64,000 nt of DNA, taken from the NCBI GenBank assembly GCA_965153455.1, contig OZ234493.1:1302001-1366000 (forward strand), in the 5' to 3' direction. This document shows positions 17,487 to 60,279 of the stretch, piece after piece. This stretch comes from Sphagnum compactum (Eukaryota). The position numbers and the translations under genes are program-made. The notes under the pieces are model-generated. The model was given only the letters and a program-made list of their open reading frames with translations. It was not told the DNA's origin and did no database searches. How positions within the stretch are numbered: position 1 is the stretch's first letter; each line of letters opens with the position of its first letter.

Positions 17487-20400
17487 ATGGGTCTTGTTTG
17501 CTTCTTCTTCTTCTTCTTCTCTATGTTGCCAATGTCGGTGAGGGGGGCATCATCATCATCAGATGCCCAGCTGCTTCTACAGTTCAAGGCAGGAATAGTG
17601 GAGCTGGGAGCTTCACAAGTGCTAGCTGATTCTTGGGTAGCAGAGAATGTGGACTCTGCAGGTTGTCCTCAAGGATGGTACGGTGTCACCTTCTCCAACC
17701 CTGGCTGCAACGTGGTTGCTCTGTCTCTCCCGGGCCTCTCGCTCTCTGGAGAGATCAAACAGTACACACTAGGGAGCCTCTCTCACCTCAATTCTCTCTC
17801 CCTTGCTCTCAATTCTCTTAATGGGTCTCTTCCTGCGGATATTGGAGCCCTCTCCCAGCTGCAATCCTTGGACCTCTCCAACAACCACCTTGCAGGTACC
17901 ATACCCCAGAGCTTTGCCAATCTGCAGAGCTTGGTGAACCTGTCACTAGCCAACAATGTTCTGCTTTCAGGAAGTATTGTCTCTGTTCTTGAGCTTCCAG
18001 AGCTGGTTTCTCTCAATCTTTCGGGCAATGCCTTGACTGAAGGGCTTGCTTTCAGTGACAATCTTGTCGAACAAGCGAAGCTGGTGACACTTGACCTCAG
18101 CAACAACCAACTGTCAGGCTCCATTGATCCTCTTCTCACATGGCTCCCTTCCCTTGCTTTCCTCAACTTATCTGGGAATGCCTTCTCCGGCACCATTCCT
18201 CCAGAATTTGGGCAGTGCTGTACCACGCTCATGGCATTGGATTTGAGCAACAATGGATTGACAGGTCCCATTCCCACCATGGATCTTATGGAATCTCTTG
18301 TTTCACTCCGCCTTGCCGGCAATGGCCTCAGCAGCTCTGTTCCTTCTCAACTCTTGAATGACCTTGCTCCTCTTCTTCAAGAACTGGATCTCAGCAGCAA
18401 CAAGCTCACAGGTAGGTGATCAATGGATGGTGCCACCCACCTTTCCCTGTTTCTTTCTTTGGTTCCACCCTTTTGTCCCTTGCACGGCTTTCATATCAAG
18501 CATTCTTTGAGTACATACATACATCAAGCAGGTCTCGTGCCGGGTGGCTGTTGGGAGTTTTCTTTTTTCTTTTTTTGTTGTGGGTTTTGTGTGGCTATGG
18601 AGATTGATGGATTGGTTGGTTTTGCAGGTAGTCTGGAGCAGGTGACATCGAGCACCTTACAAGTATTGAATCTTTCATCCAATGAACTGGAAGGTGCACT
18701 CCCGAGCAGGCTCAAGTCATGTATGGTTGTAGATCTCAGCAGCAACTTGTTTTCAGGGGGGATTTCACTTGCAAGCTGGAGTCCTGGATTGGAGATCCTG
18801 GACCTGAGCCATAACCAGCTCAATGGTACACTTGATGATGAAGCTCTGATGCAGCCTTTTCGATTACAAGCTGTCGACTTGAGTTTCAACCAGCTCACAG
18901 GCTCCATCCCATTGAAGCTTCTTTCGTCACCCTCCATCTCTCAACTCAGCTTGTCAAACAATCAATTCTCCGGAGCTATTCTGATGCAACCGTTGGGAAC
19001 AACCGCAGCAGCAGCTCCTTCTCCTCCCCTTCGGTGGCTGGATCTCTCAACCAACAACTTATCTGGTCAAATCCCTGATGCGATTGCGAGCTATCCAAAC
19101 CTGGAAGCACTGCTTCTGGATGTAAATCAGCTCTCAGGAAGCATTCCAACACAACTTTCAAACTTGTCACTCCTTCGAGAACTTGATGTTTCCAGTAACT
19201 TGTTGACTGGTGCCATCCCTGCAGACCTTCCTGCCAGCCTCCACCTCTTGAACGTTTCGCACAACAATCTTTCTGGCACTCTTCCTCCAAATCTCATGAA
19301 GCTGTTCCCGAATGCGTCATTCTTTCCAGGAAATCCTAATCTGATGCTGCCGTTGACAAGTTCTTCTTCTGACCCAGGCATACAGGTAACACTGGGGAAC
19401 AGTAAGAAAAACTCAGGTTCAGTGATTCGAGTTGGACTCATAGGCGGATGCACAGTAGGTGCAGCACTCCTCATTGCAGCAGCCTTGCTTGTTGTTTACT
19501 TCCGCAACTCCTCCAATTACACAACTATCAAGACATCAGTAAAAGTGCCAACACCACTGCTGCCTCAGGATGCAAAAGCTGTCCCCCGTGATCTTCTTCA
19601 AATGGACTCAGTTCACCCAGAGACCATCCCAGCAATAGGCTTCGATTCTTCAAAGCCTCAGTATCATCATGACTCGGAGGCTTTGGATCTGCAAAAGAGT
19701 GCAGGAGATTCACCGATATGGACAAGGTTGCGATCAGCAGGAGGATTGCTATCTTCTGCTGCTGATGATAGCTCGTCTCTCTCATCAGAGCAGCATCAGA
19801 TGGTACTGAAAGTCCATTCACCTGATCGATTGGCAGGTGACCTTTTCTTTCTGGATGGCTCTTTACTGTTCACAGCTGAAGAGTTGTCACGTGCACCAGC
19901 TGAGGTTTTGGGTCGCAGCAGCCATGGCACCTCGTACAAAGCCACTCTCGATAACGGCCATGTGCTTACAGTCAAGTGGCTACGTGAAGGTCTTGCTAAA
20001 AACAAAAAGGACTTCACACGTGAAGCCAAGCGATTCGGTGGGATCAAGCATCCTCACGTGGTGCCGATGCGAGGATACTACTGGGGTCCTCGTGAGCACG
20101 AGAAGCTTTTGTTGTCGGATTATGTCAGCACAGGGAGCTTAGCAAGTCACTTGTATGAGAAGTCAGGTGGAGTGCGAACACATCCGACTCTGACTTGGGA
20201 GCAACGACTGCAAATTGCTATAGGTGTTGCTAGTGGGTTGACATACCTTCATGGGAAGCAAGGACTAGCACATGGCAATCTCAAAGCCAGTAATGTGTTA
20301 CTCCAGGGTCCACACTTACAGGCGCGGGTTGCTGATTACAGTCTTCATCGCCTCATGACGGCTGCAGGTACTGCCAACCATATCTTGAACGCAGGTGCTC

Positions 20401-20777
20401 TGGGCTACCGATCGCCTGAGCTGGCTGCCACTCGCAAACCCAAACCTTCACTTGCAGGTGATGTTTACGCTCTGGGTGTCATCCTCATGGAGCTTCTCAC
20501 TGGCAAGGGAGCTGGCGACATCATGTCTGGCAATTCTGGGGCTGTCGATTTGCCTGACTGGGTACGCCTCATGGCTTCTGAAGGACGACCTGTTGATTGC
20601 TTTGACCGAGCCCTCATTGGTCTTCATCGAGACCAAGAACCTCTGAAAGGAATGCACGAAGTGCTCAAAATTGCACTGTTGTGCATGTCTCCACATTCAA
20701 TGAGACCCAACATGCGAGTTGTATATGATCAACTCGTTGCACTCACTTCTTCTTCTTCTTCTTCTTCTTTTTCATGA
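17487..20777 (+). CDS. LRR receptor-like (pseudo)kinase, GHR1/SIRK1 (At4g20940/At5g10020)-like; exons 17487-18411 and 18628-20777
   Basis: Signal peptide MGLVCFFFFFFSMLPMSVRG (alternative in-frame ATG at 17388), LRR N-cap CPQGWYGVTF, many plant LRRs (LxxLDLSxNxLxGxIP), TM segment VGLIGGCTVGAALLIAAALLVVYF. Kinase domain has EELSRAPAEVLGRSSHGTSYKATL, LTVKWLREG and HGNLKASN. GT-AG intron 18412-18627 joins the two long ORFs in phase. Confidence 0.93.
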
Positions 20778-29300: not shown

Positions 29301-31812
29301 ACACGTGATTCAACATTAGGAAACAGCTCTTGAATCCGAGAGAATGCCATCCTCGTTATCTAAGCTGTGCTGTAAAGCTTTCCTTTACGAAGGACCGTTT
29401 CTATATTCTAAGCTGATGTGTTGGTATGTGATACATATGATTTGTTTCTGTCATGTGGCTGGCTTGCAGTGATGGGGTGCCCGATACACCTGTAATTGTA
29501 CATGTAGGGAGACTGGGGGCTGAAAAAAATCTTGATTTTCTCAAAAGGTGGGTTCTATCAATTGGACCATTCTCATGTTTGTTGTCCATGACACCTAATC
29601 ACATGACACCAAAAGACATGAAGTCACTCACATCTACTGGCTGGATAATAGTAGAAGCAGAGTATGGACATCAGCCTGTATTTCTGGTTGGGGTGGAGCT
29701 AGAGTGGAAAACTTGTGAATCCTCAGTATGATGGGATTTGGGTTAATACAGACTGACTAAGTTCCACTAGTTTTCTTTCTGAGTTGCAGGGTTATGGAGC
29801 GAATACCAGAGGTGCGCCTGGCATTCATAGGCGATGGTCCTTACAGGTGAGCTGAGCTGTATTCTGCAATATAATTATTTAATCAAGGGTTAAGTATACC
29901 TGAGCTGATGTTAGAACAGAAGTTTTAAGTTGAATTGTACCAGTGGCATGTACCTGAACTATGCCTTGGTATATTGATAATACAATCCAGCTCACAATGC
30001 AAGAGGAACACCACAGAGGTGATATCAAAGCTGTCTTAAATTTACTTCAGGCACCCTCAAGATCCCATATCTGTAGCAGGCCCTGATGTGTAAGCTTGTT
30101 AGAACAAGTACTTTTGAAGGATAAACTTGTGAGCAATGAGAACTCACATGTGAGAAACAGGTAGACTGACGAGAGACAAGTCTTTCTGTTGATGTAAATA
30201 GGTTCCAGTCATGTGCAACTAAGCCATGAAACCAAGTGATCAATGCCAAACAGGCAGGGATCACCATGCTGACAAGTTTACTGTTGTGCAAATATAATTT
30301 GGTATGGTTAGAGCATCCCCAGCAGTGCTCAATATGCGACCCTGCACATTAAAACTGGATGAAGAAAAATCAAAACATGCCAGTTTGGCTCCGCAAAATG
30401 CTTTCACCCAGCATTTTTGCACAGTTTGCTGAGACTAGTAAAAGGCACAGCAAAGCTGTGTACCTGCGAGAGAAGAGTAATAAATATGATCTGACTGCTC
30501 CTCCCTGTTTCTGATTGATCAATCATAACAATTGGTTGAGATGGTTTGCAATTACTCTCCCACCTATTTACTGTCCTAGTTTTATGGTGGGATTGCAAAA
30601 AAGTAAATAACTAAACTCGGATGTGAGAAACATTTTTGCAGGGTCACATACTGAGCATCACTGCTGGGGATGCTCTTAGTTGTGTATAGACTGTTCCTAA
30701 GGACAAGTTCTCTACTGTTGCAGCATTTGGAAGGTCTCATGGTGCATCAAGCATTTCTTACCTTGTCAGTGGAAAGGACGAGAATTGGAACTGTGGCTAC
30801 TATCCTGAGATGACAGTAGTCAAGAGTTAGAGCCATCTAAGCATCTCACGGACATTTTGATGACATCTTGATAAGGATGTAAGCCTTTCATTCTAAACAG
30901 TAGTGGCCTATATGTTTTTTTCACAGTGATCATGGAATTGGTGTCAATGCAGGGCTGACTTAGAGCAGATGTTTCAAGGGATGAATGTCACCTTCACAGG
31001 CATGCTACAAGGCGAGGAACTATCACAGGCATATGCAAGTGGGGACATCTTCATCACTCCCTCTGAGACTGAAACTCTAGGGTTTGTGGTCCTAGAGGCT
31101 ATGGCCTCTGGAGTACCAGTTGTTGCTGCCAGGGCAGGTGGGATTCCTGATATTGTAACCCAGGATGGGGAGGCAGGATTTCTCTACACACCAGGTGACC
31201 TTGATGATTGCCTGAGCAAGATAAAGCCCCTGTTGGAGTCTTCTGAGCTAAGGCAAAAGATTGGTGTGGCAGGTATAGCTCATTTCTAGGCCTCTGTGCT
31301 GATTGATAAGAGCTGCAAATGTTGTGCTTGAATGAGCTTTGCTGGCTCTGCAACCTCAACATTGATGCATTTTGGTTCAGAGTGAGCAGGGTCTTGGAGT
31401 CTCAATAAACTCTCATATAATTAGTTTCCATCTGTTAAGTTACTTTTGTATTTAAAACACTGGTTTTGCTCATCTTAGACTACTCCTAGCTCTTCCATGT
31501 CAGTGTTTCAGGTTTAACATATTGTCTCCAATGTACTGGGGCTACCTAACCTTCAGGAAGGGAGAGGAACCCTTTTGTCTCTTTGGGTAATTTACAAGTA
31601 GTACCAATATCATGAAATTTCTAACACACAAAGGAGTTCCTCTTGCAGGTCGTGCTGAGGTGGAGAAATTTGACTGGCGGGCAAGTACCAGGCAAGTGCG
31701 AAATGAGCAGTACAGTGCTGCAATCTGGTTCTGGCAGAGGAGGCAAGAGCAGTTGGCAAGTGGATTCTCGGGATGGTTCAATTTCCAGCCGGCACCAGCA
31801 CAGAATCTGTAA
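26308..31812 (+). CDS. SQD2: Sulfoquinovosyltransferase (SQDG synthase, GT4 family), 12 exons: 26308-26732, 27171-27237, 27462-27532, 27687-27804, 28094-28167, 28427-28482, 28697-28780, 28938-29025, 29470-29547, 29790-29846, 30953-31272, 31649-31812
   Basis: Spliced translation gives KPRRIALFVEPSPFAYVCGYKNRYQNFIRYLRELGDEVLVVTTH...FRPDIIHASSPG...YHTHLP...VGRLGAEK...GDGPYR...PSETETLGFVVLEAMASGVPVV...FDWRAST. All introns are GT-AG and in phase. Ser-rich N-terminus is consistent with a plastid transit peptide; the start ATG is less certain. Confidence 0.93.
30311..30675. mobile_element. PIF/Harbinger (Tourist-like) MITE in SQD2 intron 10
   Basis: Long TIRs gagcatccccagcagtgctcaatatgcgaccctgca / tgcagggtcacatactgagcatcactgctggggatgctc; TSD TTA at 30308-30310 and 30676-30678. 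Confidence 0.88.
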
Positions 31813-47600: not shown

Positions 47601-47874
47601 AGCTGATATTGCCTTGGGTGATAAGTCCCTATCAGCATTGCTCTAATATATAGGGTTTTGATGAACTCGGGTATGCACCTTGATATGTAAAACTGGAATC
47701 AATTGGTATGATTTTATGAAAACCCTAAGGCATACCTGAGGTTGACGTTTGCCTTGCCTCCATGGACACTACCATTGCACTTACCCATACCCATAGTTTT
47801 TCTCTTTTGAGATATTCTTATGCATATATGTTCTGTGAAAAATCTCTAAACCCCTCTCTAGTTGCATCCCCCTA

Positions 47875-48186
47875 TGTCATGCCCGTATGCACGGCCTCAT
47901 ACATGATGGTCAGCTACGGGCATGCCCATCATGTCTTTTGAGGGTTAATGTACGTTTGTAGGGTTAATGTGCGCTCATAAGTGACTGTACGCTATTAGGT
48001 ATTTAGGGTTTCAGCTTTGGTGGCTGTATAAAAGGGCCAAGCTCTACCCTTCTCCTTTAGTTTTTCTAGAATTCCTTTGTCAGGTGATTTCTCCATCATA
48101 AGCTAGGATTTCTAGATGCTCACGGCGGCCATTGCACGACCACCGTCTACATACATTTCATTTCTTTCTTGCTTTGCATTTACAAT
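47875..48186 (+). repeat. Terminal repeat A1 (312 bp)
   Basis: Matches 57038-57349 and 57527-57838 apart from three G/A differences seen by eye. Confidence 0.95.
48027..48033 (+). promoter_or_regulatory. Probable TATA box of the retrotransposon promoter
   Basis: TATAAAA within repeat A, 32 nt upstream of the predicted transcript start at 48059. Confidence 0.65.
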
Positions 48187-48198
48187 TCTAGAAAAACT
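48187..48198 (+). other. Putative self-priming primer-binding site
   Basis: tctagaaaaact lies immediately after A1 and is the exact reverse complement of agtttttctaga at 48059-48070; no TGG-type tRNA PBS is present. Confidence 0.75.
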
Positions 48199-48469
48199 CT
48201 ATTCCCTGTTGCTTCATGTTGAAAGCAACAGATTTCTTGTGCTTTTGAAATTCTTGAGTTGTTGCTACTCGTGTTGTTGCTGCCGGAAGGAGCGCGTTAC
48301 TACTGTTGCTACTGGTGTTGTTGGAGGGAGCTTTGCATTTCTTACAACCAACCAAGCAGGGACAAACGAAGTCAGGACATTAGAGATCAGGTGTCAAAAC
48401 TTCTCTCTTTCTCCCATTCTTTTTCTCTCTTCAAGTTGTCGAAAAAAAAAAAAAAAAAAAAACAAGAAT

Positions 48470-49235
48470 CGCGGCGGCGGCCGCTTGCCATCGCTGTAGA
48501 GCAGCGTAGCGCCGCCTGCCATCACTGCGCAGCAGCGAGCTCTAGCGCCGCAGGGCGTTGCGTTCCGCCGTTGCCGCAAGCTGCAACGTCGTAGCGCTGC
48601 AGCAGCACCGCCGTCGCAACAGCGCTGCATCAGCGCTCGCAGCAGCACCGCCGCAGCAAGAGCGCCGCGGCAGCACCGCCGTCGCAACAGCGCTGCACCA
48701 GCGCTCGCAGTAGCACCGCCGCAGCAAGAGCGCCGCGGCAGCACCGCCGCAGCGCCATCGCTGCACTAGCATTGCAGTGCCATCGCTGCCGTAGCGCTGC
48801 AGCGCCATCGCTGCAGCAGCGCCACAGCAACAGCGCCGCAGCGCCATCGCTGCAGCAACAATGCAGTGCCGCGGCAACATTCCAGCAGCGTCGCAACGTT
48901 GCGAGCTGCAACGCCATCGCTGCGACCTTGGTCCGTCCGACTTCCGTCGACGGTCGTCGGACTGTCCTGCGTCACTGCTGACGTCATCGTGCTGCCGTCC
49001 TGCCTGCGTCACTGCTGACGTCATCGTATTGTCATCCTGCTTGCGTCACTGCTGACGTCACCGTACTGCCGTCCTGCGTCACTGCTGACGTCATCGTGTT
49101 GCCGTCCTGCGTCCTGCCTACGTCATTGCTGACATCACCGTCCTGCCCGTCCTGCGCTTTGCCGTCCTACGTCCTGCCTACGTCACTGTTGACATCACCG
49201 TACTGCCGTCCTGCGTCCTACGTACTACTGTACTG
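48470..49235 (+). repeat. GC/CpG-rich tandem repeat arrays in the retrotransposon 5' leader
   Basis: gcagcaccgccg / agcgccatcgctgca units at about 48540-48925, then gtcactgctgacgtcatcgt units at about 48970-49200. Confidence 0.85.
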
Positions 49236-49422
49236 CAGTCCTGTTTCCTGTGTTCTTCGCACTGTGGTCGTGCATTGTGTGGTCTTGTGTCTTGTAGCTT
49301 ATCTTGCTGCATTCTGCCATATTATCGTCCTGCAATTAGGGATATTCAAACCATACATTGTGTTAGAATTTTGTAATTGAAGGATTATATTAGTACAAAA
49401 TTTTGGGGCATGGGACAACACC

Positions 49423-52400
49423 ATGTCCTCGGATGATGAAAGTAGCATTACTCATCCAGAGCCAAGGTATCAATTACGAAGTAACACACAACCCTTTGAA
49501 CCAATATCTTTGAGTTCACGATCCTCACGACGATACCACCAAGCATCCACAGCACCATCATCATCTAGTACAAGTCCTATTAAGAATTCAGGTTTGGGTT
49601 ACACTACATCAACAACACACCAGAGCCCATTTGGAGGGGTTAATCAGTGGGCTACACCTATTACTGCACCTGCTTTCACACCATCACCATATACTCCGTT
49701 GCAAGCTGTGACTTCAACACCCATATACACCATGGAGGTCAGCAGTTCCTCTGGGAGAATAGAGAAGTTCAGCGGAAGGCCAGGTACTATTTCGTTGAGG
49801 GAGTTCAAGGCAACTTTCTCAACAGTCTGTGAGTTGGAGCTGAAGTATGGTGCTAATTACACCGAAGCGTTTGCATTTAAGCAATTGGCCCGTTATGTGC
49901 ATTATGAGGCATTGGATGTCTACGAGCAACATTCTGCAAGGATTTTGGGTGTCACCCAAGCCCCCAATCCAGCTTACGCCATAGCCATCGCCACCGCCTC
50001 TCAAGCTGCAATTGCACATCACGGGACTGTGCCGAATAATCCAGACCCGGTACCTACCTCGGTAAACCTCTCTCCTTAAAAACTCATTGCTGCTACTGCA
50101 AACATTCCTCCCACCATTGATGCGCCAGCTTTTGTTGATCCAGTGGGGGAATTCTTTCGAATTCTTTAGCTGGAATTTCCAGTCAAAAGTTCTGAAAAAA
50201 TTCTGCAGCTCGCCACCTTCTCTCGGCAGAAGGATGAAACCCTCAAGATGCTTTACAGGAGGCTTCTCAAACTCAAAGAGGATACCCAGAGCATCACCGA
50301 CTTGGAAGCTGCCCATCGGTATCTTTGTTCTTTGGAAGGTACTCCAACACTCCACGCACAGGTTTTGCAACGAATCTTTGCAGAATTTGGAGACTCGTAC
50401 ACGTTGCTGGATGTGTACAACATTTCCGAAAAGCTAGAACTGGCTCATGCACATTATGAGGCCAGTACTATGAGGCCTCCATCACGTTCAAGGCCTCAAC
50501 CTACAACAGCTGCACCAACTAGATCATCACATTCTTCTTCAAGGACTAAAGCGGTGCACTCGGCTACACCCATCCTACCTTCTTGCAACTACTGTGGCAA
50601 TCCTGCCCACAAAGCTAGTGAGTGCAACATTCCTTCCGAGGATCTCTTTTGTGATTATTGTGGGAAAGAGGGACATCATGAATCTGTCTGTTTTGCCAAG
50701 TTCCCAGAGCGGAAGCAACTCCGGTTACAACGGCAAAATCTGCCAGCATCTTCCACTATCCCTCAACCAAAAGCCAAGGCACCTCAGCATTCCACTCAGG
50801 CTTTGCCCACCAAGGGTAATTCCAACAAGAATGCTAAGAAGAAGGAGCACAATGCTGATAAGAGGGAGGTGCTTCAAGCCCATGCAATTCAAGTTCAGAC
50901 TTTACAAAATGAACTCGAATCATTGAGGGCTCAACTTGCGAATCTAAAAGGCAAGTCCTCCCAATCAGCTAGTCATGCCCAACCTGTACAAGGTTCAGGA
51001 TCACGCGAGGGACCTCCTAGGTCGTTCTATGGCCTTCCACACGATGCAATGGTTGGGGAGTATGTTCTTTCCACTCCACACAATTCTAGTCTCACACCAG
51101 AATTGGCTACTTCTTTTTGCCCTTCCTTTGTCGCAGCACAAGAAGCTAGTGTGGCACCCAGAGTTTCTGCCACTAGGCAGGTAATTCAGACTGATGGACT
51201 CGCATCTGGTTCAAGTCCTATTACCAGGGCTAGAGGAGCTCGAGCAGTCATGCCACAATCTTTTCGTCCTCTCAACATGGAAGAAGAAGGCACCTTGTTG
51301 GCGAGGGGGGAGGAGACTACTACACCACAAGTTGTTAGGGCATCAAATTCTCATGTCCCAGGAGTACATGTACATCAGGAAAACACACAATTTTCCACTG
51401 ATCAGCTTATGGAATGCCAACTTCAAATGCATGAAGTGGCGCAAAAGCTTGTGAGTACACCATTGTTTAGTTTTCAAGATTTGAAGCTAAGCACCAGGGA
51501 CATAATTGCAATCTTAGAGGATACCTTGAACACTACATCAAGTCCTCTACCAACCCCTAATCCACATGCTACAGAGGTCCCATCCAACACCTTGGAGAGA
51601 CATTCGATTGGTTCACGTGTTGCAGATGGCGTTCGTAATCTAGTCACTAGTTCTGGCATGGCTAAACTAGTGAGCTTTCCTACCTCTGATGCTACATTCA
51701 CATATCAGAAGGGAGTTAAGAACACCTCACTTGTGGATTTGTTACTCAGCAAAGGCGTTGTGGATAGCCATTCTCTCCACAAAGTCTCTCATTCATTTCC
51801 GAAGGTGGTGCCTAGTGAGAGAACTTCCATCGCCACCGGAGTTGCCATTGTCGACAATACTAAGTCAGCAATCCAGGTGGGAGGACATACACCCAGAGTG
51901 GTTCTTCTTGATACAGGTGCCCAACCAGTGATTCTTGGAGTTCAATTCGCCAAGAAGATGGGCATGTTCGACTCCAAACTACGAAAATCTATGTGGCACA
52001 TTCGCACCGCTAGTGGGAGCGTAGAGGAGGTACTTGGGGAGAGCTCGGATTTTATTGCACTTAATTTCAATGAAGGTACAGATCAGGAGCTTTGCTTACA
52101 GGTCAGATGTTTAGTCACCAATGCCACAAGTTATGATGTGCTCATTGGGCAAGAGGCCCTGTTTCCACCAGGTTTTACAATTGACAATTGGTTCGAACAT
52201 GCGTACTACCGAGTGGATTGGGAGACTGATGGCCACCACCTGGGATACATACCCCTTGATTTACATGGGAACCATAGTCCTATGGCTCACCATTGTATGC
52301 TCAAGGAAGCACACACCATTTCCTACATCCAACAAGCTAGCCACGAATGGATAGAGGGAGATGAAGAGGAGATAGCTTACGCTCAAGCTACTGAAAGCTT

Positions 52401-55400
52401 GAGGGTGGTTCCTACTGACATTCAACATGGACCAGAGGTTTTACAAAGGTTCAAAGTAGCCTACAAGCCCTTGGTCAAAGCTTTGTCTAGTTTTGAAAGC
52501 ATGGAGAGCCATGGCGAACCGATTAAGCCATTACTCCGTCAGCTAATCACTTGGACACCACCTAAGGAAGGGATTACATTACTAGAGCTCTTTGGTGGTA
52601 TTGGTACAGGTCTCGAAGCCCTACTACAGTCAGGGATGGTGGTCCGAAGGTATTTCTACGTAGACATTGATCCTATTGCAAGGCAAGTGGCAGCATCGAG
52701 AATGATGGAGCTCACAACCAGATTTCCACAACAGTTTACAACCACTGCATGGAAGGCCAGTTTCACTTTCTTGCCCCCTGACATACAATTAATTCAGAAT
52801 AAGCATATGGAATTACTTGGCCCCGTGGACCTCATCATTTCAGGTTGGGAGTGTCAAGGATTTTCAGCAACTGGATTTGGAGAAGGCTTGAGTGACACAA
52901 GATCCGGTCTCTTCACGGACGTGGTACGATTGATTACCTGGGCTCAATCCATTTCCCCTACGCTTGGTTATGTAATTGAGAACACCCCTTCTCAGCTTGA
53001 CCAGAGGGAGAAAGTCCAGGAGCACTACACACTTGTCAAACATTACCTTGGAGAGCCACTCCTACTCGATGCGGCACAATGCGGTTCCTATGCGCACCGG
53101 TTGCGCAACTGGTGGACCAACCTTGCACCACTTTCAATTCTGCAGTTGGCTCTGAGATACACCATCAGAGACCACAACCTGCAGGTTTCTCACATATTGG
53201 ATGATCAGAGCTCTTGCCAACCAGTTACAAGGCAAGAGAAACCTCCTTGGTTTCCTGCGAATACGATAGGAAAACCAAGAGGTGCTTGGCCCACCTTTGT
53301 CTCCTTCCCTGGAGCACACGCCTTTCAGGGAGATGGACCAGGCTTGGTGTATCGTCATGCTTCAGCCACTTGGGATGAACCAAGCCCAGAAGAAAGAGAA
53401 AGGGCTATGGGGTTCCAAACTGGCACTACTAGTCACACCAAGGTGACTAGATTGGAGCGTAACGCTCTACTCGGGAGAAGCATGGACCTGAACTCCCTTA
53501 CATGGTTATTGGTAACCTGTGTACTCTTTCAAATGTACACAACACCAACACTGACTCAATCAGCTTGCAGCTCTGACGATGCAACCACATGGCACCCCGA
53601 CCAAGTACACTTGCCTATCTTCAACACTCTACATTTCACTCTCAGTGTTGGGGGGGAGGAGGTACCATGTAATTTGACTCAAGTTATGTCCAATACACCT
53701 GGAGGTACATCAGCTTCTGGAGAAACAATTACAACCTTCTACGAATCTACGGAGTTGGATAATGGAAAACCCAATACATCAGGTTCTTCAAACACACTTT
53801 CCAACTCCATTCCATGTGTTTCCAACTACCCTTTTGTTATGGGGAACCAGCTCACCAAGAAGGAGAGAGACCAGGTCACAGACTTGCTAATTAAGTATGA
53901 GAATGTGTTCGCATTCTCAATGAAAGACTTAGGTAGGTGTAAGACCATGCAGTTCTCTATAGACCTTACAGATGAGACACCCGTTTATCGAAGGAGGCAT
54001 AGGTTGAGCAAACATGAATGGGAATTGGTAGATGAAAGATGCAAAGAGCTCCATGAGGCCGGTCTCATTCAGCCATCAAGTTCTGATTTCGCAGCCGCTA
54101 CAGTAATGCCAGCAAAGAAGGATTCAGCTGGATTATGGACTGAGAAAAGGATGTGCGGGGATTATAGGCCTTTGAACCTGGTTACACCTCAGGACAGGTA
54201 CCCCATGCCCATCCCTGAAGAACTGTTTGATAGCATTGGAGACTCAAACATCTTCACAATTGTGGATCTGAGGCAAGGCTTCAACCAGATTGTGCTCGTT
54301 GCAAAAGATCGCAAGAAAACAGCATTCCATGGAAGCAATAAGTTGTGGGAATGGCTTGTGATGCCTTTTGGATTGAAGAATGCACCTGTCTTCTTTCAAC
54401 GAGTCATGGACCAGGTTCTCGAAGGGGCAGATTTCCTGAAATGCTACATAGATGATGTCCTAGTGCATAGCAAGGGACTCCTACATCACTTGGCTCATCT
54501 TGAGGAGTTATTCAAGAGGCTCCACGAAGTCAATATGAAGATCCATCCTAAAAAGTGTGAGTTTGCTGTCACCTCAGTAGTTTACCTTGGACACAGAATT
54601 TTGCCAAATGGTATTATGGCTCATTGGGCCAAAGTAGTAGCCATTTTGGAGATGCCCGATCCTACTGATGTTCACACTTTGAGGAGCTTCATCGGACTAT
54701 GTAATTACTACAGGATTTATGTCCAAGACTTCAGTACTATTGCTCATCCTCTCTATGCATTGTTAAAGAAGGATGTTGCTTGGACATGGAGTGAAGAGGC
54801 TCGGGAAGCTTTCAACACACTCAAGGAAAAGCTTTCAGAGTTTCTGAGAAGACCTGATTTCAGCAAGGTCTTCATTCTACACACTGACTGGAGTGCTCTT
54901 GGTATTGGAGTTATTCTTGGCCAACTTGATGAGGAAGGCAAGGAATATGTTATCGCCTATGCATCTCGAAGCAACAACAAGGCTGAGAGCAACTACTCTT
55001 CATACGAGGGGGAGTGCCTTGCTGTTGTATGGGCCGTCATACATTTCAGGCCCTATCTTTATGGCACCAATTTCACTCTGTATACGGACCACCAGCCTAT
55101 CAAGTGGTTGATGACCAACGATAAGCTTACTGGTAAGTTAGCTCGTTGGGCGCTGATACTTCAAGAGTATGAGTTCAAGGTTATTCACCGACCAGGTATT
55201 ACACATCAGAATGCAGATACCATGTCACGAAGACCCCTCACTACCTCTGAAGATTTTTCAGAAGCCAGGCAAGATTTTGACCAGATCCCAGCAATACATG
55301 TATCTGAGGCATCTAGTTATCTTGCATTACTGCAATGTAACCTGGTTGAGCATCCCATTCTGGATATATGGGAGGACTTGGACACTCTGGGGTTTCTTCA

Positions 55401-56811
55401 ACATGGGGAATACCCTCCCCAAGTTACATCAAGTCAGCGGGATCGCATACAACAGCAATCCAAACGCTACTCATGGAGGGACAATCACCTCGTCCGATGC
55501 TTACCACAAGGCGACAGAGTGGTTCCACCACCACATGAACGCCCTGGTCTTATTCAGAAGGTACACTCGGAGTTTGGACATTTTGGAGTTAAGCGTACTT
55601 ATAGCCTTATCGCTCCTCATTACCATTGGAGAGGTATGTATGCTCAAGTCCGAGACGTCATTGCTAGGTGTGAACAATGTGATAGAGTGAGAACTTCCTT
55701 CTCCTCTCGACAGCTCACTCTTTCTCCACTACCTATTCAGGGCATGTTCTATCGCTGGTCATGTGATTTAGCTGGAGAATTACCACAGACCTCCAGGGGT
55801 AATGTCTACATCATGATTATGATTGAACATTTTTCAAAGTGGGTCGAACTTGTTGCGCTACCGGACAAGTCATCACACAGCACTAGCCAGGCTTTCTTAC
55901 AACAGGTTCTAAGTAGGTTTGGGGCTTGTGCTGAGTGCCTTACTGATCAAGGATCAGAATTCAGGGGAGAATTCCAAGACCTACTTGACCATGCTCTCAT
56001 TGACCATCGTCGGACTTCAAGAGATCATCCCCAAGCTGATGGCCTTGCAGAAAGGATGGTTCAAACATGCAAGAAGGGTCTTCGGAAGATTTGCCTCACT
56101 AAGAACAAAGAGGATTGGGACCTGGCCCTCTCTTACATCGCCATGGGTTACAGGATGTCCAAACACGCCTCTTTATCTCATTTCTCCCCTTACTTTTTAC
56201 TTTTTGGGAGACATCCCATTCCACCCTCTTCCATTGCTGCTCAAATGGACCAAGTTGTGGACTTGGACTCCCCAACCATTTGGGCTAAGGTCATTGCAGA
56301 AAGGGCCGCTCTATTCAGGAGGGTTATGCCCATGGCCATGGAAAACCTGTCCATTGCACAACATCGAGACACCTTACGGTATGCACACACACGAGGTGGT
56401 AGTTACAAACCTAAGGTGAGACAATTTGATGTTGGTGATTTTGTGTATTTTCAGCGACAACCCAATGATACTTTAGACACTTCTTCCGGTCGCACCATCT
56501 TGAGGATTAAGGCGATCAGGCCTTCAGGTGTGTTGGAGCTACAAGGAGCTGACGGACGCACAATTCGGGATCATTCCAAAAATTGTGCGCCTTGCCACCT
56601 GCCAAACTTGGACCCTACCATCAGCACATCGACTTGGATTCCTCCACTTGATTATCCATGTCAGGTATGTCAGAGGATGGACGATGCTGATCAGATGCTG
56701 CTTTGCGACAACTGTAATGGTGGATACCATCTCTTCTGCCTCAAGCCGGAGCTCACTCAAGTTCCCGTTGGCAATTGGTACTGTTCATCATGTTCTCCTA
56801 CAGCACCTTGA
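49423..56811 (+). CDS. Gag-Pol polyprotein (gag, two Zn knuckles, aspartic protease, C5-DNA methyltransferase, RT, RNase H, integrase, PHD), interrupted by in-frame stops at 50077-50079 and 50167-50169
   Basis: ORFs 49423-50079 and 50248-56811 share a frame. Motifs: CNYCGNPAHKASEC, CDYCGKEGHHESVC, LLDTGA, RMCGDYRPLN, MPFGLKNAP, YIDDVLV, FILHTDWS, YTDHQPI, HSEFGH..CEQC, WSCDLAG / LTDQGSEF / DGLAERMVQ (D,D,E triad). Confidence 0.93.
52573..53511 (+). other. DNMT3-like C5 cytosine methyltransferase domain within pol
   Basis: Motif I LELFGGIG, II VDID, IV DLIISGWECQGFS, VI VIENT, VIII DAAQCGSYAHRLRNWWTNL, IX ERERAMGF, X RNALLGRSM. Confidence 0.9.
56659..56793 (+). other. PHD finger (C4HC3) at the integrase C-terminus
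   Basis: CQVCQRMDDADQMLLCDNCNGGYHLFCLKPELTQVPVGNWYCSSC. Confidence 0.93.
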
Positions 56812-56852
56812 TTCCTACTCAGACCATGCCATGCTTTTCCCGGCTCAGGTCT

Positions 56853-56860
56853 GGGGGGGG
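56853..56860 (+). other. Polypurine tract (G8) directly before repeat B1
   Basis: ctgggggggg|atacatgaga; the G run abuts the first base of the 3' repeat array. Confidence 0.7.
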
Positions 56861-58013
56861 ATACATGAGAATTTCATCTCAGTCTCATGTGTGCATTGTA
56901 TATATATGTGTGCATGTATCTCTTTTTAGTTGATTAGTTTATATCTTTGACTGGCTTTAGTCTTTTTGTTTAGTAGAGTTTCTTATGAATGTACACCTTA
57001 CGACACTGTATGTCACGACACTACACGTCACGACAGCTGTCATGCCCGTATGCACGGCCTCATACATGATGGTCGGCTACGGGCATGCCCATCATGTCTT
57101 TTGAGGGTTAATGTACGTTTGTAGGGTTAATGTGCGCTCATAAGTGACTGTACGCTATTAGGTATTTAGGGTTTCAGCTTTGGTGGCTGTATAAAAGGGC
57201 CAAGCTCTGCCCTTCTCCTTTAGTTTTTCTAGAATTCCTTTGTCAGGTGATTTCTCCATCATAAGCTAAGATTTCTAGATGCTCACGGCGGCCATTGCAC
57301 GACCACCGTCTACATACATTTCATTTCTTTCTTGCTTTGCATTTACAATATACATGAGAATTTCATCTCAGTCTCATGTGTGCATTGTATATATATGTGT
57401 GCATGTATCTCTTTTTAGTTGATTAGTTTATATCTTTGACTGGCTTTAGTCTTTTTGTTTAGTAGAGTTTCTTATGAATGTACACCTTACGACACTGTAT
57501 GTCACGACACTACACGTCACGACAGCTGTCATGCCCGTATGCACGGCCTCATACATGATGGTCGGCTACGGGCATGCCCATCATGTCTTTTGAGGGTTAA
57601 TGTACGTTTGTAGGGTTAATGTGCGCTCATAAGTGACTGTACGCTATTAGGTATTTAGGGTTTCAGCTTTGGTGGCTGTATAAAAGGGCCAAGCTCTGCC
57701 CTTCTCCTTTAGTTTTTCTAGAATTCCTTTGTCAGGTGATTTCTCCATCATAAGCTAAGATTTCTAGATGCTCACGGCGGCCATTGCACGACCACCGTCT
57801 ACATACATTTCATTTCTTTCTTGCTTTGCATTTACAATATACATGAGAATTTCATCTCAGTCTCATGTGTGCATTGTATATATATGTGTGCATGTATCTC
57901 TTTTTAGTTGATTAGTTTATATCTTTGACTGGCTTTAGTCTTTTTGTTTAGTAGAGTTTCTTATGAATGTACACCTTACGACACTGTATGTCACGACACT
58001 ACACGTCACGACA
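56861..58013 (+). repeat. 3' terminal repeat array: B1 (56861-57035), gc, A2 (57038-57349), B2 (57350-57524), gc, A3 (57527-57838), B3 (57839-58013)
   Basis: 489-bp periodicity; the copies look identical by eye. Confidence 0.95.
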
Positions 58014-60279
58014 CCTATCTTCCTCATTTTGTGTGTGTGTGTGTTTTTTTCAGGGAAACAAATGGAAAAATTCATTGCAAAGAAATATTTTTAGTGCGTT
58101 TTGAATGGTTAAAACATAATGGGTGCGCCAACTAGGGCTTTATAAAATTTCTTTGTATTCCAAAAGGCAAATACGCAACAATCAAAGATCTTAAACTTGA
58201 AATCCTATTGTGTTTTAATTCACCTGTCACTGAACACTGTACCCATTATACCGAACACCTCATATCTTGTCCATTCCTTTATTGAATTGAGATATTTTTG
58301 CAGTGTTGGGCAGCGCTAGGTGGAGGGCTAAGATACCTACCTACTTTGCACAACAAAGCACAAGTTGTTGCCCACAACATAATTTAATGAGTGTCTCTAC
58401 CATGGAAAACTAGAGGTGAATAATGAAAGTTTGAAGATCATAGCAAAATCATGCCCAATAAAGAAATATAGGCTCTAGCACGCCAAACAAGCAAAATCAA
58501 TATGCAGCAGATTGGAGACAATAAGAGTATAATTGCTTACTTTTTGCAAGAATGACAGAAGTCCATAGTCCATACAATATTACCCCATACCTGGGATCCT
58601 GAAATGAGTAGCAAGGGAATGAATAATTAATTGCTAAGTTGCTCCTCACTAATCCATACACCAATGTGCAATGAGTAGCAGCAAATGTAAAGCACAAGCA
58701 GAACATTTCAGTATATTTGGAGGACACACTATCAAGTGAAATCTGTCACCATGTACATGTACACCAAGAGTACCCTTGCACACATTATACCCAAGATTGC
58801 TTTTTCATTTGACAAAACCCAATTGCTCTTGTCAAAGGATAGGAAACGCTAGTGTGCGACCATAGTGTTTTTGTGTGCAAGGATAGGGAACAACAGTGCG
58901 ATGATGGGGGAATTGGTGTGTGATGTTAGAGGATTCGCAACAAATAGGTCCCTTTACTCTACACCAGATTACACTTGTGTTTGATTGAGGTCAACAAACA
59001 TCATGATCCTATTCCAGCATTGGTGTTTTTTCTTCATAAAACCAAGGATATGGGCTTGCCTGCAATGGTCTACTTTATCTTCAGAGGAGCCCATCAATTG
59101 CATCTGGATTCTGGATGCATTAGGTTCTCTGAAATTGATTTTTATTGTTATCATGGTTGTTGCAATGTGTACTTTCAAGGTTGACCCCAATTGCTACTTG
59201 CCTACCATTTGAAAATTTAGTACAAACCAGTGTTGGTCTAGTATCAAAGAATATTACCTATATAGCAGGCTGGTATGGTCTTCAATACCTTGTCAATGCC
59301 AGGCATAAGCCTATACACCAGAGCACTGAATTATTTGGTGGTGAGTTTTTGCCATTTTATCATTTTCTTTCTTTTTTGGTTCAAATGAAAAAAATCATTG
59401 CAAAGAAAAAGGCTTTTAAAAATATTTTGAAAACAGAATATTTGATCACCAATTCTCTTTTTTGAAAACAATTGCCAAAAATTGTCACAACTGCCTACAA
59501 CATGAAAAAGGCATTTCAGATCCTTTTTACATTCATAATCTGAACTAGTGTGTAACTTGTGCCGTTTGGCCCAAGTGTGAACACATTCTTTATTTTTCAC
59601 ATTTTCAGAATTGAAAATTTCTAAATTCAACAATGTGAACACATTGAGGGCTCAACTGATTTTTCCTCCTAAACCCAATTTTTGAAATTTGTTTGAATTT
59701 CCAGCAACAAAATCCACTCAAAAAGTCAATATCTTCCACACCTTAGCTCCAAAATTTGTGAATAAACTTTGAGCATTCCGAAGATACCAAGAGCACAGCA
59801 TGAAGCACTCTGGTTTGGGAGATCCCAGCATGACAAAACAAAACAAAACAAAACAAACTACAAAAGATGTCACAAAATTTGGCTAAATATTCTTATGGAT
59901 GATTGCCAATTGAGCAACATCACAAAATTGGGAAAGAAAAAACATTGTACCAGAGTTCAGGCAAACACTTACACAAACTCCAATTGTGCCCATCATTTTG
60001 GGCTTACCAAACCTCCTTTTTTTGGGCATACAAAACCTTTAATCTTCGTAGAAATTAGGGCATGTTTGGGCATCACCTGTACATCATCATTTTTGTTTTT
60101 CAAGATTATGCAGCCAAATTGGGAAGGCTCTCAAATGTGCAATGTGTGGTGGATTGAATGTTTTTCCTTAGTCAATGGCCAACAAGAGTGTTTGTGCAAT
60201 TATACAATTAGGTAACCGGTGAGAGCATGCAAGTAACCAGTGTGCTCAAGCGAGTCGCTGGACATAAGCATCCCTTGTG

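What the first reader, a model, noticed from the sequence alone, without database searches (positions are those of the whole stretch)
52573..53511. Retrotransposon carries its own DNMT3-like cytosine methyltransferase between protease and RT
Seen: an uninterrupted domain of about 310 aa with C5-MTase motifs in canonical order, in frame inside pol. Motifs VIII-X (DA....AHRxRxWWxNL, ER.MGF, R..LLGRS) resemble DNMT3 rather than MET1, CMT or the permuted DRM. Established: DNMT-carrying retrotransposons have been reported in dinoflagellates and charophyte algae, and mosses retain host DNMT3 de novo methylases that flowering plants lost. Inference: this is a land-plant element that could methylate its own cDNA or new insertions (camouflage, self-regulation or protecting a circular intermediate), or alter host chromatin.
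Basis: partly seen in the sequence, partly recalled or inferred. Interest (0 to 1): 0.9.

Follow-up and report, generated by a model that had tools for sequence, protein, structure and literature searches.

The report
Moss retrotransposon with DNMT3-like methylase
A young Ty3/Gypsy-type jumping gene in a moss genome encodes its own DNMT3-like DNA cytosine methyltransferase, which extends to land plants a kind of element so far described only in algae.

Summary
Window 52573-53511 encodes a 313-aa C5-methyltransferase domain. It lies in frame in a 2213-codon gag-pol ORF (50170-56811), between protease and RT. Sequence, profile and fold searches all rank DNMT3A/B/C first.

- **Host:** a moss. A neighbouring LRR kinase gene is 69% identical to Sphagnum proteins.
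- **Element:** 47875-58013, with TG..CA ends, a 4-bp target duplication and split direct repeats.
- **Family size:** at least 574 related copies in metagenome contigs.
- **State of the copies:** most are dead; 53 of 54 ungapped DNMT copies carry stops.
- **Selection:** shared substitutions are mostly synonymous (omega 0.25 against 0.65 for singletons, p=9e-6). Window against L002 gives dN/dS 0.11 in DNMT, against 0.08 in RT-RH.
- **This copy:** young, but it has two stops in gag.

The architecture matches KnitGypsy-Dnmt3 of the alga Klebsormidium (PMC5890265). Relatives also occur in Closterium, Haematococcus and Monoraphidium. I found no report from a land plant. Verdict: a new member of a known kind. 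Catalytic activity is inferred, not shown.

The parts
47871..47874 (.). Left copy of the 4-bp target-site duplication (CCTA)
   Evidence: Same 4 bases at 58014-58017. Of 8 elements with both ends readable, 5 have perfect 4-bp duplications and 2 more have 3 of 4.
47875..48186 (+). 5' terminal repeat segment 'B' (312 bp). It starts with TG and holds a TATA-like box, TATAAAAG, at 48027-48034.
   Evidence: 99.0% identical (3 transitions) to 57038-57349 and to 57527-57838. No 'A' segment lies upstream of it, here or in 18 of 18 related loci that have a 5' B.
48187..49422 (+). Leader: a 9-bp-stem hairpin at 48206-48231 and GC-rich tandem repeats at 48593-49242. No primer-binding site was identified.
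   Evidence: The tRNA and PBS searches were negative.
49423..50169 (+). N-terminal part of gag, in the same frame as the long ORF. It is interrupted by in-frame stops at 50077-50079 and 50167-50169.
   Evidence: Translation. At these two codons 44 of 51 and 38 of 51 related copies carry one and the same sense codon.
50170..56811 (+). Open 2213-codon gag(NC)-pol frame
50584..50691 (+). Two CX2CX4HX4C zinc knuckles (nucleocapsid)
   Evidence: Pattern search on the translation.
51871..52161 (+). Aspartyl protease
   Evidence: PF13975, E 6.9e-5, residues 568-664. This is below Pfam's cut-off (23.8 against 28.2 bits).
52573..53511 (+). DNMT3-like C5 cytosine methyltransferase domain (residues 802-1114). 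Motifs I-X are in canonical order; the catalytic Cys lies in WECQ.
54139..55170 (+). Reverse transcriptase and RNase H
   Evidence: PF00078 6.9e-28, PF17917 2.7e-38, PF17919 9.6e-31.
55525..56031 (+). Integrase: H2C2 zinc finger and DDE core
   Evidence: PF17921 3.1e-15, PF00665 2.8e-12.
56659..56793 (+). C-terminal PHD finger on the integrase
   Evidence: PF00628 3.2e-11. Best solved relatives are WSTF, KMT2D, CHD4, KDM5, ATXR5, BAZ2A/B, KAT6A, UHRF1 and AIRE PHD fingers.
56847..56860 (+). Polypurine-like tract (AGGTCTGGGGGGGG), directly before the 3' repeats
   Evidence: Read from the sequence.
56861..58013 (+). 3' repeat block A-B-A-B-A. A is 175-177 bp and B is 312 bp; the block is 2.36 tandem units of 489 bp and ends with CA. 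The A|B junctions read ..CACGACA-GC-TGTCATG.. (palindrome GACAGCTGTC).
   Evidence: The family's usual form is A-B-A (14 of 33 loci). The junction keeps two bases between CA and TG in 13 of 13 loci.
58014..58017 (.). Right copy of the target-site duplication (CCTA)

Best explanation
Window 47875-58013 is a recently inserted copy of a high-copy Ty3/Gypsy-type retrotransposon family in a moss genome.

Shown:
- The gag-pol polyprotein reads NC, protease, DNMT3-like C5 cytosine methyltransferase, RT, RNase H, DDE integrase, PHD finger.
- The ends are split direct repeats (B ... A-B-A).
- The element ends are TG..CA, flanked by 4-bp target duplications.
- The methyltransferase domain keeps every residue that is invariant across 166 homologues.
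- In the lineage that produced the copies, the domain has been under purifying selection as strong as that on RT and integrase.
- The architecture is the one described for KnitGypsy-Dnmt3 of the streptophyte alga Klebsormidium.
- Named relatives occur in Closterium, Haematococcus and Monoraphidium.

Inferred:
- The domain is a working, SAM-dependent de novo DNA methyltransferase, made as part of Pol.
- It acts in or near the reverse-transcription and integration complex, on the element's own cDNA or fresh insertion.
- The integrase PHD finger steers integration by reading unmodified histone H3 tails.

What the element gains from methylating itself is not known. This particular copy cannot make full-length Gag, because two stops interrupt gag.
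For: Domain order and identity:
- Pfam on the ORF.
- phmmer against the PDB, best DNMT3A at 6.6e-9.
- Family profile against the PDB: DNMT3A 1.2e-22, 3C 1.5e-19, 3B 5.5e-19, DRM 5.8e-13, HhaI 4e-9, and no DNMT1 or CMT.
- AF2 model with pLDDT 95.6. The top 50 Foldseek hits are all DNMT3A/B/C.

Catalytic set, in 166 full-length homologous domains: G9 (motif I), C94 (catalytic), S98, E136 (ENV-type motif VI), R176, N183, G280 and D305 are invariant in 166 of 166. R178 is present in 164 of 166. The window copy has all of them.

Selection:
- Among 71 non-duplicate related copies, variants shared by 20-80% of copies give N=51, S=63 in DNMT (omega 0.25). Singletons give N=271, S=126 (omega 0.65). Fisher p=8.8e-6.
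- The same contrast holds in RT, RH and IN pooled, where shared variants at over 20% frequency were set against singletons (p=7.7e-9).
- Window against L002 gives dN/dS 0.109 in DNMT (22 N, 52 S), 0.077 in RT-RH and 0.131 in IN.

Thousands of contigs from three DNA runs with different organism labels lie on all 30 bins of the ORF.

Real insertion in a moss:
- TG..CA ends and a CCTA duplication.
- A moss LRR kinase gene in the same window.

Youth: the 5' and 3' B segments differ at 3 of 312 bases, while other copies differ from this one by 8-12%.

Precedent: KnitGypsy-Dnmt3 has a Dnmt3-type domain in Pol, Gypsy domains, DIRS-like repeats and Ka/Ks<0.2 (PMC5890265, section read).

Tree: the moss DNMT falls in a group (SH-aLRT 94) with Closterium, apart from the group holding Haematococcus and Monoraphidium (SH-aLRT 81).
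Against: - No activity was measured.
- The Pro of the near-universal Pro-Cys catalytic dipeptide is Glu here. In the family, 91 of 166 have Glu and 63 of 166 have Pro. I know of no test of an E-C enzyme.
- The Klebsormidium domain gave no methylation when expressed in yeast. The authors call this inconclusive, because human DNMT3B also failed in that assay.
- This copy has two in-frame stops in gag.
- 53 of 54 ungapped related DNMT copies carry 1-7 stops. Present-day activity of the family is therefore not shown.
- Among the 40 best-supported differences between this copy and the copies in sequencing runs, the DNMT domain has 3 non-synonymous and 3 synonymous changes. The RT-to-IN stretch has 1 and 18.
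- RNA evidence is weak. Contigs from one moss metatranscriptome cover all 30 bins, but the tool warns that DNA can be present in such a library.
- No tree with host DNMT3 or DRM sequences could be made, and no Klebsormidium sequence could be fetched. DNMT3 ancestry and identity with the Klebsormidium family therefore rest on rankings and shared architecture.
- Copies show a very high C-to-T rate in all contexts. The family does not escape methylation-linked decay.
Confidence: 0.65

Rival explanations
1. The domain is conserved but no longer methylates DNA. It would serve as a DNA- or RNA-binding or scaffolding module of Pol, or it would methylate RNA, much as DNMT2 acts on tRNA.
For: - Glu replaces the Pro before the catalytic Cys, here and in 91 of 166 family members.
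- The Klebsormidium domain gave no DNA methylation in yeast.
- The authors themselves raise RNA methylation for another TE-borne DNMT.
Against: - The catalytic Cys, the motif VI Glu, the motif VIII Arg and the motif I Gly are invariant in 166 of 166. That is not expected of a pure scaffold.
- The fold is DNMT3-like along its full length.
- DNMT2 is a far weaker match (3e-4) than DNMT3A (1.2e-22).
- The yeast result was called inconclusive by its authors.
Confidence: 0.2
2. The moss family is extinct, and this copy is only a well-preserved fossil. Its open DNMT frame would reflect youth, not present function, and nothing is made from it today.
For: - Two stops in gag in this copy.
- 53 of 54 related DNMT copies have stops.
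- The C-to-T rate per site and copy is 0.18 at CG, 0.20 at CHG and 0.07 at CHH, against 0.010-0.011 for the reverse transitions.
- No full-length stop-free copy was seen among the 80 loci. The best, L002, has 5 stops in 2048 codons.
Against: - The terminal repeats of this copy differ at only 3 of 312 bases, and its tandem units are identical over 664 bases. Insertion was therefore recent compared with the 8-12% divergence between copies.
- Contigs at 99% or more identity exist in all three DNA runs laid (994, 5402 and 3116 contigs).
- An RNA library holds contigs over the whole ORF.
- The 80 loci come from metagenomes, not from this genome, which was not available.
Confidence: 0.15
3. The element does not belong to the moss. 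It would be an algal contaminant or an assembly chimera, or the DNMT would be a host gene fused to a transposon by chance in this one locus.
For: Named relatives are all algal: Haematococcus, Monoraphidium and Closterium. Mosses carry algal epiphytes.
Against: - The element is flanked by a target duplication inside AT-rich DNA (28-38% GC), in the same window as a moss LRR kinase gene and a glycosyltransferase exon.
- The same architecture recurs in at least 574 loci, on contigs of up to 131 kb.
- The nearest algal DNMT domains are only 29-38% identical, whereas the other copies are 81-95% identical.
- 14 DNA runs under five organism labels hold 49-62% of the sampled words.
Confidence: 0.02

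Closest known systems
KnitGypsy-Dnmt3 of Klebsormidium nitens (de Mendoza et al. 2018, PMC5890265)
   Same: - A Dnmt3-type, non-permuted methyltransferase inside the Pol ORF of an element with Gypsy domain composition.
- Repeats arranged as in DIRS-like elements rather than as plain LTRs.
- An intronless, multi-copy family.
- Purifying selection on the DNMT (Ka/Ks<0.2 there; 0.11-0.25 here).
- A streptophyte host.
(Section and figure legend read; here.)
   Different: - The host is a land plant (a moss), not an alga.
- Copy number is far higher: at least 574 loci and thousands of contigs, against 'fewer copies' in K. nitens.
- A C-terminal PHD finger is present; the word PHD does not occur in the paper's main text.
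- No direct sequence comparison was possible. No Klebsormidium protein appeared among the named hits, and the paper's supplements were not available.
SymbioDIRS-Dnmt3 and SymbioLINE-Dnmt of Symbiodinium (same paper)
   Same: A cytosine methyltransferase encoded inside a retrotransposon ORF. The DIRS-borne Dnmt3 domains methylate CG de novo in yeast.
   Different: The backbones are unrelated (tyrosine-recombinase DIRS and LINE). The authors consider these acquisitions independent. The host is a dinoflagellate.
Cellular DNMT3 enzymes (mammalian DNMT3A/B/C; moss PpDNMT3b)
   Same: Best sequence, profile and fold match, with canonical motif order. PpDNMT3b performs de novo CG and CHH methylation in a moss (abstract of PMC6453930).
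   Different: - Only 21-23% identity to the solved DNMT3 chains.
- No PWWP or ADD reader domain next to the catalytic domain.
- Glu-Cys instead of Pro-Cys.
- Embedded in a polyprotein, with no introns.
PAT/Ngaro-type DIRS-like elements with split direct repeats
   Same: The repeat geometry is one segment at the 5' end and the order other-same-other at the 3' end (B ... A-B-A). The definition of split direct repeats is recalled, and is supported by the legend quoted.
   Different: Those elements use a tyrosine recombinase and give no target duplication (recalled). This one has a DDE integrase, TG..CA ends and 4-bp duplications.
Chromoviruses (Ty3/Gypsy elements with a chromodomain on the integrase)
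   Same: A chromatin-reader domain is fused to the C-terminus of the integrase (PHD here). The comparison is recalled.
   Different: It is not a chromodomain.

Membership tests
C5 cytosine methyltransferase, DNMT3 type | C5-MTase fold with motifs I, IV (catalytic Cys), VI (ENV), VIII (RxR), IX and X in canonical, non-permuted order | tested here: met
   PF00145 E 7.7e-9. Collinear alignment to DNMT3A over three blocks. Model TM 0.72-0.75 to DNMT3A/B/C. DRM matches only part of the profile, against the C-terminal part of the chain, as expected for a permuted enzyme.
C5 cytosine methyltransferase, DNMT3 type | Closer to DNMT3 than to DNMT1/MET1, CMT, DNMT2 or bacterial enzymes | tested here: met
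   Profile against the PDB: DNMT3A 83.8 bits, DNMT3C 73.7, DNMT3B 71.8, DRM 51.9, HhaI 39.1, DNMT2 22.6. No DNMT1 or CMT chain at E<=1. This is a ranking, not a phylogeny.
C5 cytosine methyltransferase, DNMT3 type | Placement inside the DNMT3/DRM clade in a tree with host enzymes | not tested
   No host DNMT3 or DRM sequence could be obtained through the tools. The 2018 paper places the Klebsormidium TE copies in a divergent Dnmt3-related clade.
C5 cytosine methyltransferase, DNMT3 type | Pro-Cys catalytic dipeptide | tested here: not met
   Glu-Cys in this copy. The family has Glu in 91, Pro in 63 and other residues in 12 of 166. The Cys itself is invariant.
C5 cytosine methyltransferase, DNMT3 type | PWWP and/or ADD chromatin-reader domains N-terminal to the catalytic domain | tested here: not met
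   Pfam finds none. The only reader domain is a PHD finger 1050 residues downstream, on the integrase.
C5 cytosine methyltransferase, DNMT3 type | De novo DNA methylation activity | not testable with these tools
   Needs expression and bisulfite or enzymatic methyl-sequencing.
DNMT3-encoding Gypsy retrotransposons (KnitGypsy-Dnmt3 kind) | Dnmt3-type domain in frame in Pol of an element with PR-RT-RH-IN order | tested here: met
   The same architecture is seen in most of the hits (precomputed Pfam columns).
DNMT3-encoding Gypsy retrotransposons (KnitGypsy-Dnmt3 kind) | DIRS-like (split) arrangement of terminal repeats | tested here: met
   B ... A-B-A-B-A here. B ... A-B-A in 14 of 33 related loci, and A only in 16 of 33. 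The legend of Fig. 4c was read.
DNMT3-encoding Gypsy retrotransposons (KnitGypsy-Dnmt3 kind) | Sequence relatedness to the Klebsormidium copies themselves | not tested
   No Klebsormidium protein appeared among 67 hits or 97 hits. Supplements of PMC5890265 were not seen.
Ty3/Gypsy LTR retrotransposon | PR-RT-RH-IN order with a DDE integrase, TG..CA ends and a short target duplication | tested here: met
Ty3/Gypsy LTR retrotransposon | Two identical long terminal repeats, with a tRNA primer-binding site next to the 5' LTR | tested here: not met
   The 5' end carries only segment B, and the 3' end carries A-B-A(-B-A). No PBS was found. A polypurine-like tract precedes the 3' block.

The most novel reading that the evidence does not exclude
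A DNMT3-encoding retrotransposon lineage is ancient in green plants and has persisted from algae into land plants, where it reached hundreds to thousands of copies in a moss.

Its split repeats would mean that it replicates through a circular or concatemeric cDNA. The palindromic A|B junction (GACAGCTGTC) would be opened by the DDE integrase, giving the TG..CA ends. The Pol-borne DNMT3 would methylate that cDNA or the fresh insertion, so that it is read as already-marked self DNA. The PHD finger would guide integration to chromatin with unmodified H3 tails.

If so, a transposon would be writing part of a land plant's methylome.
Probability: 0.15. Interest if true: 0.85.

Novelty: new member of a known kind. 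Interest (0 to 1): 0.55.

Why it matters
Cytosine methylation is the main weapon of plants against transposons, so a transposon that carries its own de novo methyltransferase is a paradox. Its function is still unknown, and the only streptophyte example so far, from an alga, gave no activity in the single assay tried.

- **A land-plant case.** A high-copy family with a young, nearly open copy in a moss brings the question into land plants. The host still has its own DNMT3, so host and element enzymes can be compared side by side.
- **Age of the capture.** Named relatives in Chlorophyceae and Zygnematophyceae suggest that the capture is old and widespread in green plants, not a curiosity of one alga.
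- **Replication.** The family combines a DDE integrase with split direct repeats, a replication puzzle worth solving in its own right.
- **Annotation.** Counts of 'DNMT3 genes' in bryophyte genomes may be inflated by such elements.

Tried and rejected
- **Whole genome:** none is held for this window. Copy number, insertion polymorphism and host DNMT3 could not be studied in the genome itself.
- **Earlier notes of the scan:** none for this genome.
- **ESM Atlas:** it returned only generic PF00145 clusters labelled viral. This gave no information on range.
- **Organism names for the nearest outside relatives:** two look-ups of 10 proteins each returned no organism names. The nearest non-moss relatives (45-47% identity) therefore stay unplaced.
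- **Klebsormidium sequences:** none appeared, so no direct comparison was made.
- **Homodimer prediction of the DNMT domain:** no verdict, score 0.00. It is evidence neither way.
- **Primer-binding site:**
  - A recalled initiator-tRNA PBS motif has 2 matches with 2 mismatches. Both lie outside the element, and 3.84 were expected by chance.
  - ARAGORN found no tRNA gene in the window or in 20 loci.
  - My own ARAGORN script returned no records.
- **Promoter and terminator scan of the leader:** it uses bacterial consensus patterns and found nothing beyond chance apart from the hairpin.
- **Junction script:** a regex version timed out. A BLAST version replaced it.
- **RNA runs:** six RNA runs hold only 9-14% of the sampled words. 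The one laid (X15) shows contigs on all bins but cannot prove transcription.
- **Depth:** depth figures were not used as copy numbers, as the tool warns.
- **Considered and rejected:**
  - A plain LTR reading with LTR = A+B. The 5' end lacks A in 18 of 18 loci, and the target duplications flank B-start and A-end.
  - Chance fusion or contamination (see the rival explanations).
Full report
**1. What is there**

The stretch 52573-53511 (+) reads as 313 residues without a stop. It is part of one 2213-codon open frame, 50170-56811. Pfam places the following along that frame:
- a retroviral-type aspartyl protease, residues 568-664 (below Pfam's own cut-off)
- DNA_methylase PF00145, inside 802-1114
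- reverse transcriptase, 1324-1477
- RNase H, 1540-1667
- integrase zinc finger and DDE core, 1786-1954
- a PHD finger, 2164-2208

Two CX2CX4HX4C knuckles lie at residues 139-174.

**2. What kind of methyltransferase**

- The domain alone, searched against all PDB sequences, finds DNMT3A best (6.6e-9), then DNMT3C and DNMT3B. M.HhaI and the permuted plant DRM are near 0.01, and no DNMT1 or chromomethylase appears at E<=1.
- A profile of the domain with 24 homologues sharpens the ranking: DNMT3A 1.2e-22, DNMT3C 1.5e-19, DNMT3B 5.5e-19, tobacco DRM 5.8e-13 (part of the profile only), M.HhaI 4e-9, DNMT2 3e-4.
- An AlphaFold2 model built on that alignment is very confident (pLDDT 95.6, pTM 0.92). 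Its 50 best Foldseek matches among solved structures are all DNMT3A, 3B or 3C (E 2.6e-18 and up, TM 0.67-0.75 on the query, 21-23% identity).
- In 166 homologous domains that cover the query end to end, these are invariant and present here: the motif I glycine, the catalytic cysteine, the serine after it, the motif VI glutamate, the first motif VIII arginine, N183, G280 and D305. The second motif VIII arginine (R178) is in 164 of 166.
- One departure: the residue before the catalytic Cys is Glu (WECQ), not Pro. This is a family trait (Glu 91, Pro 63, other 12 of 166), not a private lesion.

**3. The host**

No genome is held for the window. The window itself carries an LRR receptor kinase gene (17280-20777). 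Its best named relatives are Sphagnum (69%), Physcomitrium (62%) and Ceratodon (61%), followed by other land plants. It also carries a glycosyltransferase exon. The background DNA is AT-rich (28-38% GC), against 46-50% in the element. The host is a moss.

**4. The element**

The first 312 bases (47875-48186, 'B') recur at 99.0% identity twice in a 3' block. That block is 2.36 tandem units of 489 bp (56861-58013), so the order is B ... A-B-A-B-A.
- The element begins with TG and ends with CA. It is flanked by CCTA on both sides.
- In related loci the usual form is B ... A-B-A. After the 3' end of the ORF, 14 of 33 loci show it, 16 of 33 show only A, 2 show A-B, and 1 is rearranged.
- None of 18 loci with a 5' B has an A before it.
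- Of 8 elements with both ends readable, 5 have perfect 4-bp duplications, 2 have 3 of 4, and 1 has none.
- The internal A|B junction keeps exactly two bases between CA and TG in 13 of 13 loci. In this copy it forms the palindrome GACAGCTGTC.
- A G-rich polypurine-like tract abuts the 3' block. No primer-binding site was found.

This is not a plain LTR structure. It is the split-repeat geometry that the legend of Fig. [quoted passage not shown] The extra tandem unit here, and the A-only forms elsewhere, are most simply explained by unequal recombination after insertion. That is inference.

**5. State of this copy**

Upstream of the long ORF, and in the same frame, lies the N-terminal part of gag (from the ATG at 49423). 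It is cut by stops at 50077 and 50167, where 44 of 51 and 38 of 51 related copies carry one and the same sense codon. The copy is therefore young (3 differences in 312 bases between its B segments) but not fully intact.

**6. The family**

- The DNMT domain has 2190 cluster representatives at E<=1e-3 and 251 at E<=1e-30, among 1.84 billion.
- Long relatives mostly carry RT, RNase H, integrase and PHD as well.
- Named ones are from Haematococcus lacustris, Monoraphidium neglectum and three Closterium strains. One is labelled as a bacterial MAG. All are 29-38% identical to the query.
- The nearest non-moss relatives (45-47%) are unnamed.
- In an unrooted tree of 44 domains, the moss pair sits in a group with Closterium (SH-aLRT 94), apart from a group holding the two chlorophycean genera (SH-aLRT 81). 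Four partial rows were left out. This fits long residence in streptophytes, but it does not prove it.

**7. Close copies**

Of these, 574 were confirmed and 80 were kept, at 81-95% protein identity, on contigs of up to 131 kb.
- Fourteen DNA runs under five organism labels hold 49-62% of the sampled words, and six RNA runs hold 9-14%.
- Laid on 49300-56860, three DNA runs gave 5110, 48972 and 28827 contigs, and one moss metatranscriptome gave 1135. All 30 bins were covered in each.

**8. Decay and selection**

- Of 54 loci whose DNMT stretch aligns without gaps, 1 has no stop and 53 have 1-7 stops.
- Differences from the window are dominated by C-to-T. Per site and copy the rates are 0.176 at CG, 0.205 at CHG and 0.067 at CHH, against 0.010-0.011 for T-to-C and A-to-G. 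Two of the three DNA runs show the same excess. This is the footprint expected of methylated cytosines deaminating in all contexts (inference).
- After 9 duplicate loci were dropped (71 kept), variants were classed by how many copies share them.
  - Singletons, which reflect decay after insertion, give omega 0.65-1.2 in all parts of the ORF.
  - Variants shared by 20-80% of copies, which were inherited from replicating ancestors, give 0.25 in DNMT. The figures elsewhere are 0.37 in RT, 0.35 in RH and 0.50 in IN.
  - The contrast in DNMT is significant (51:63 against 271:126, p=8.8e-6).
- Window against L002, the one locus with a stop-free DNMT, gives dN/dS 0.109 in DNMT, 0.077 in RT-RH and 0.131 in IN.
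- Against this, the 40 best-supported differences listed include 3 non-synonymous and 3 synonymous changes in DNMT, but 1 and 18 between RT and IN. That sample is small and selected.

**9. How it most likely works**

Shown: the domain is a complete DNMT3-type catalytic domain that has been kept by selection as part of Pol.

Inferred: it is translated with Pol. Whether or not the protease releases it, it is present where the cDNA is made and integrated, and it methylates that DNA or the new insertion.

The PHD finger's best solved relatives are WSTF, KMT2D, CHD4, KDM5, ATXR5, BAZ2A/B, KAT6A, UHRF1 and AIRE. As far as I recall, these are readers of unmodified H3 tails. I therefore infer that integration is steered away from H3K4-methylated promoters.

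The benefit to the element is unknown. The 2018 authors list several possibilities (Discussion read): masking of cDNA as self, protection from deaminases, an effect on chromatin at the insertion site, or self-restraint.

The Klebsormidium domain gave no methylation in yeast. This is inconclusive, because DNMT3B also failed in that assay.

**10. What is known and what is new**

I read these parts of the literature:
- PMC5890265: abstract and sections 9, 10, 11 and 15
- PMC12344493: passages
- PMC6453930: abstract and passages
- PMC11982613: two passages

Other titles were seen only in search listings. Supplements were not available. They may list which land plants were surveyed in 2018.

Seven searches found no report of a DNMT-encoding retrotransposon in a moss or any other land plant. 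A 2025 paper still cites only 'streptophytes and dinoflagellates' after the 2018 work.

The finding is therefore a new member, in a new host group and at high copy number, of a known kind.

Noticed in passing
window 47875-48186 and 56861-58013; loci L002, L004, L008, L013, L014, L023, L029, L043, L065, L073: A DDE-integrase element with split direct repeats (B ... A-B-A) instead of LTRs. The ends are TG..CA with 4-bp target duplications. The internal A|B junction looks like an LTR-LTR circle junction (CA-GC-TG, palindrome GACAGCTGTC). The window copy has one extra tandem A-B unit that is 100% identical over 664 bases.
   Followed up: partly
L001-L080 against window 50170-56808: There is an extreme excess of C-to-T over the reverse transitions in family copies. 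Per site and copy: CG 0.18, CHG 0.20 and CHH 0.07, against 0.010-0.011. This generates most of the stop codons. It looks like deamination of cytosines methylated in all three contexts.
   Followed up: partly
window 17280-20777 (+): A GHR1-like LRR receptor kinase gene lies here as two adjoining open frames in one frame, probably split by an intron. It is 97% identical to an unnamed JGI protein and 69% to Sphagnum proteins.
   Followed up: partly
window 30930-31289 (+): An exon-sized ORF with a group 1 (GT4) glycosyltransferase domain (PF13692, 6.6e-23). It is presumably part of a multi-exon host gene in the GC-richer stretch at 24-36 kb.
   Followed up: no
window 48593-49242: GC-rich tandem repeats (periods 68, 37 and 60) fill the leader between the 5' repeat and the start of gag. 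A 9-bp-stem hairpin lies at 48206-48231, just after segment B.
   Followed up: no
protein P0338: A 1974-aa RT-RNase H-integrase-PHD polyprotein with the DNMT domain is labelled in NCBI as from a 'Minisyncoccia bacterium' MAG. It groups with Monoraphidium (SH-aLRT 100), so the bin most likely contains green-algal DNA.
   Followed up: partly
proteins P0003-P0009, P0011-P0013, P0370, P0374: The nearest relatives outside the moss clade (41-47% identity) are proteins of about 1230-1450 aa. Their only precomputed Pfam hit is DNA_methylase, sometimes with a protease, and no RT or integrase. These are perhaps elements with gag-PR-DNMT and RT-IN in separate frames. The organism is unknown.
   Followed up: no
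proteins P0022, P0340, P0347: Some family members carry a G-patch domain (PF01585) in addition to the DNMT and integrase-PHD.
   Followed up: no
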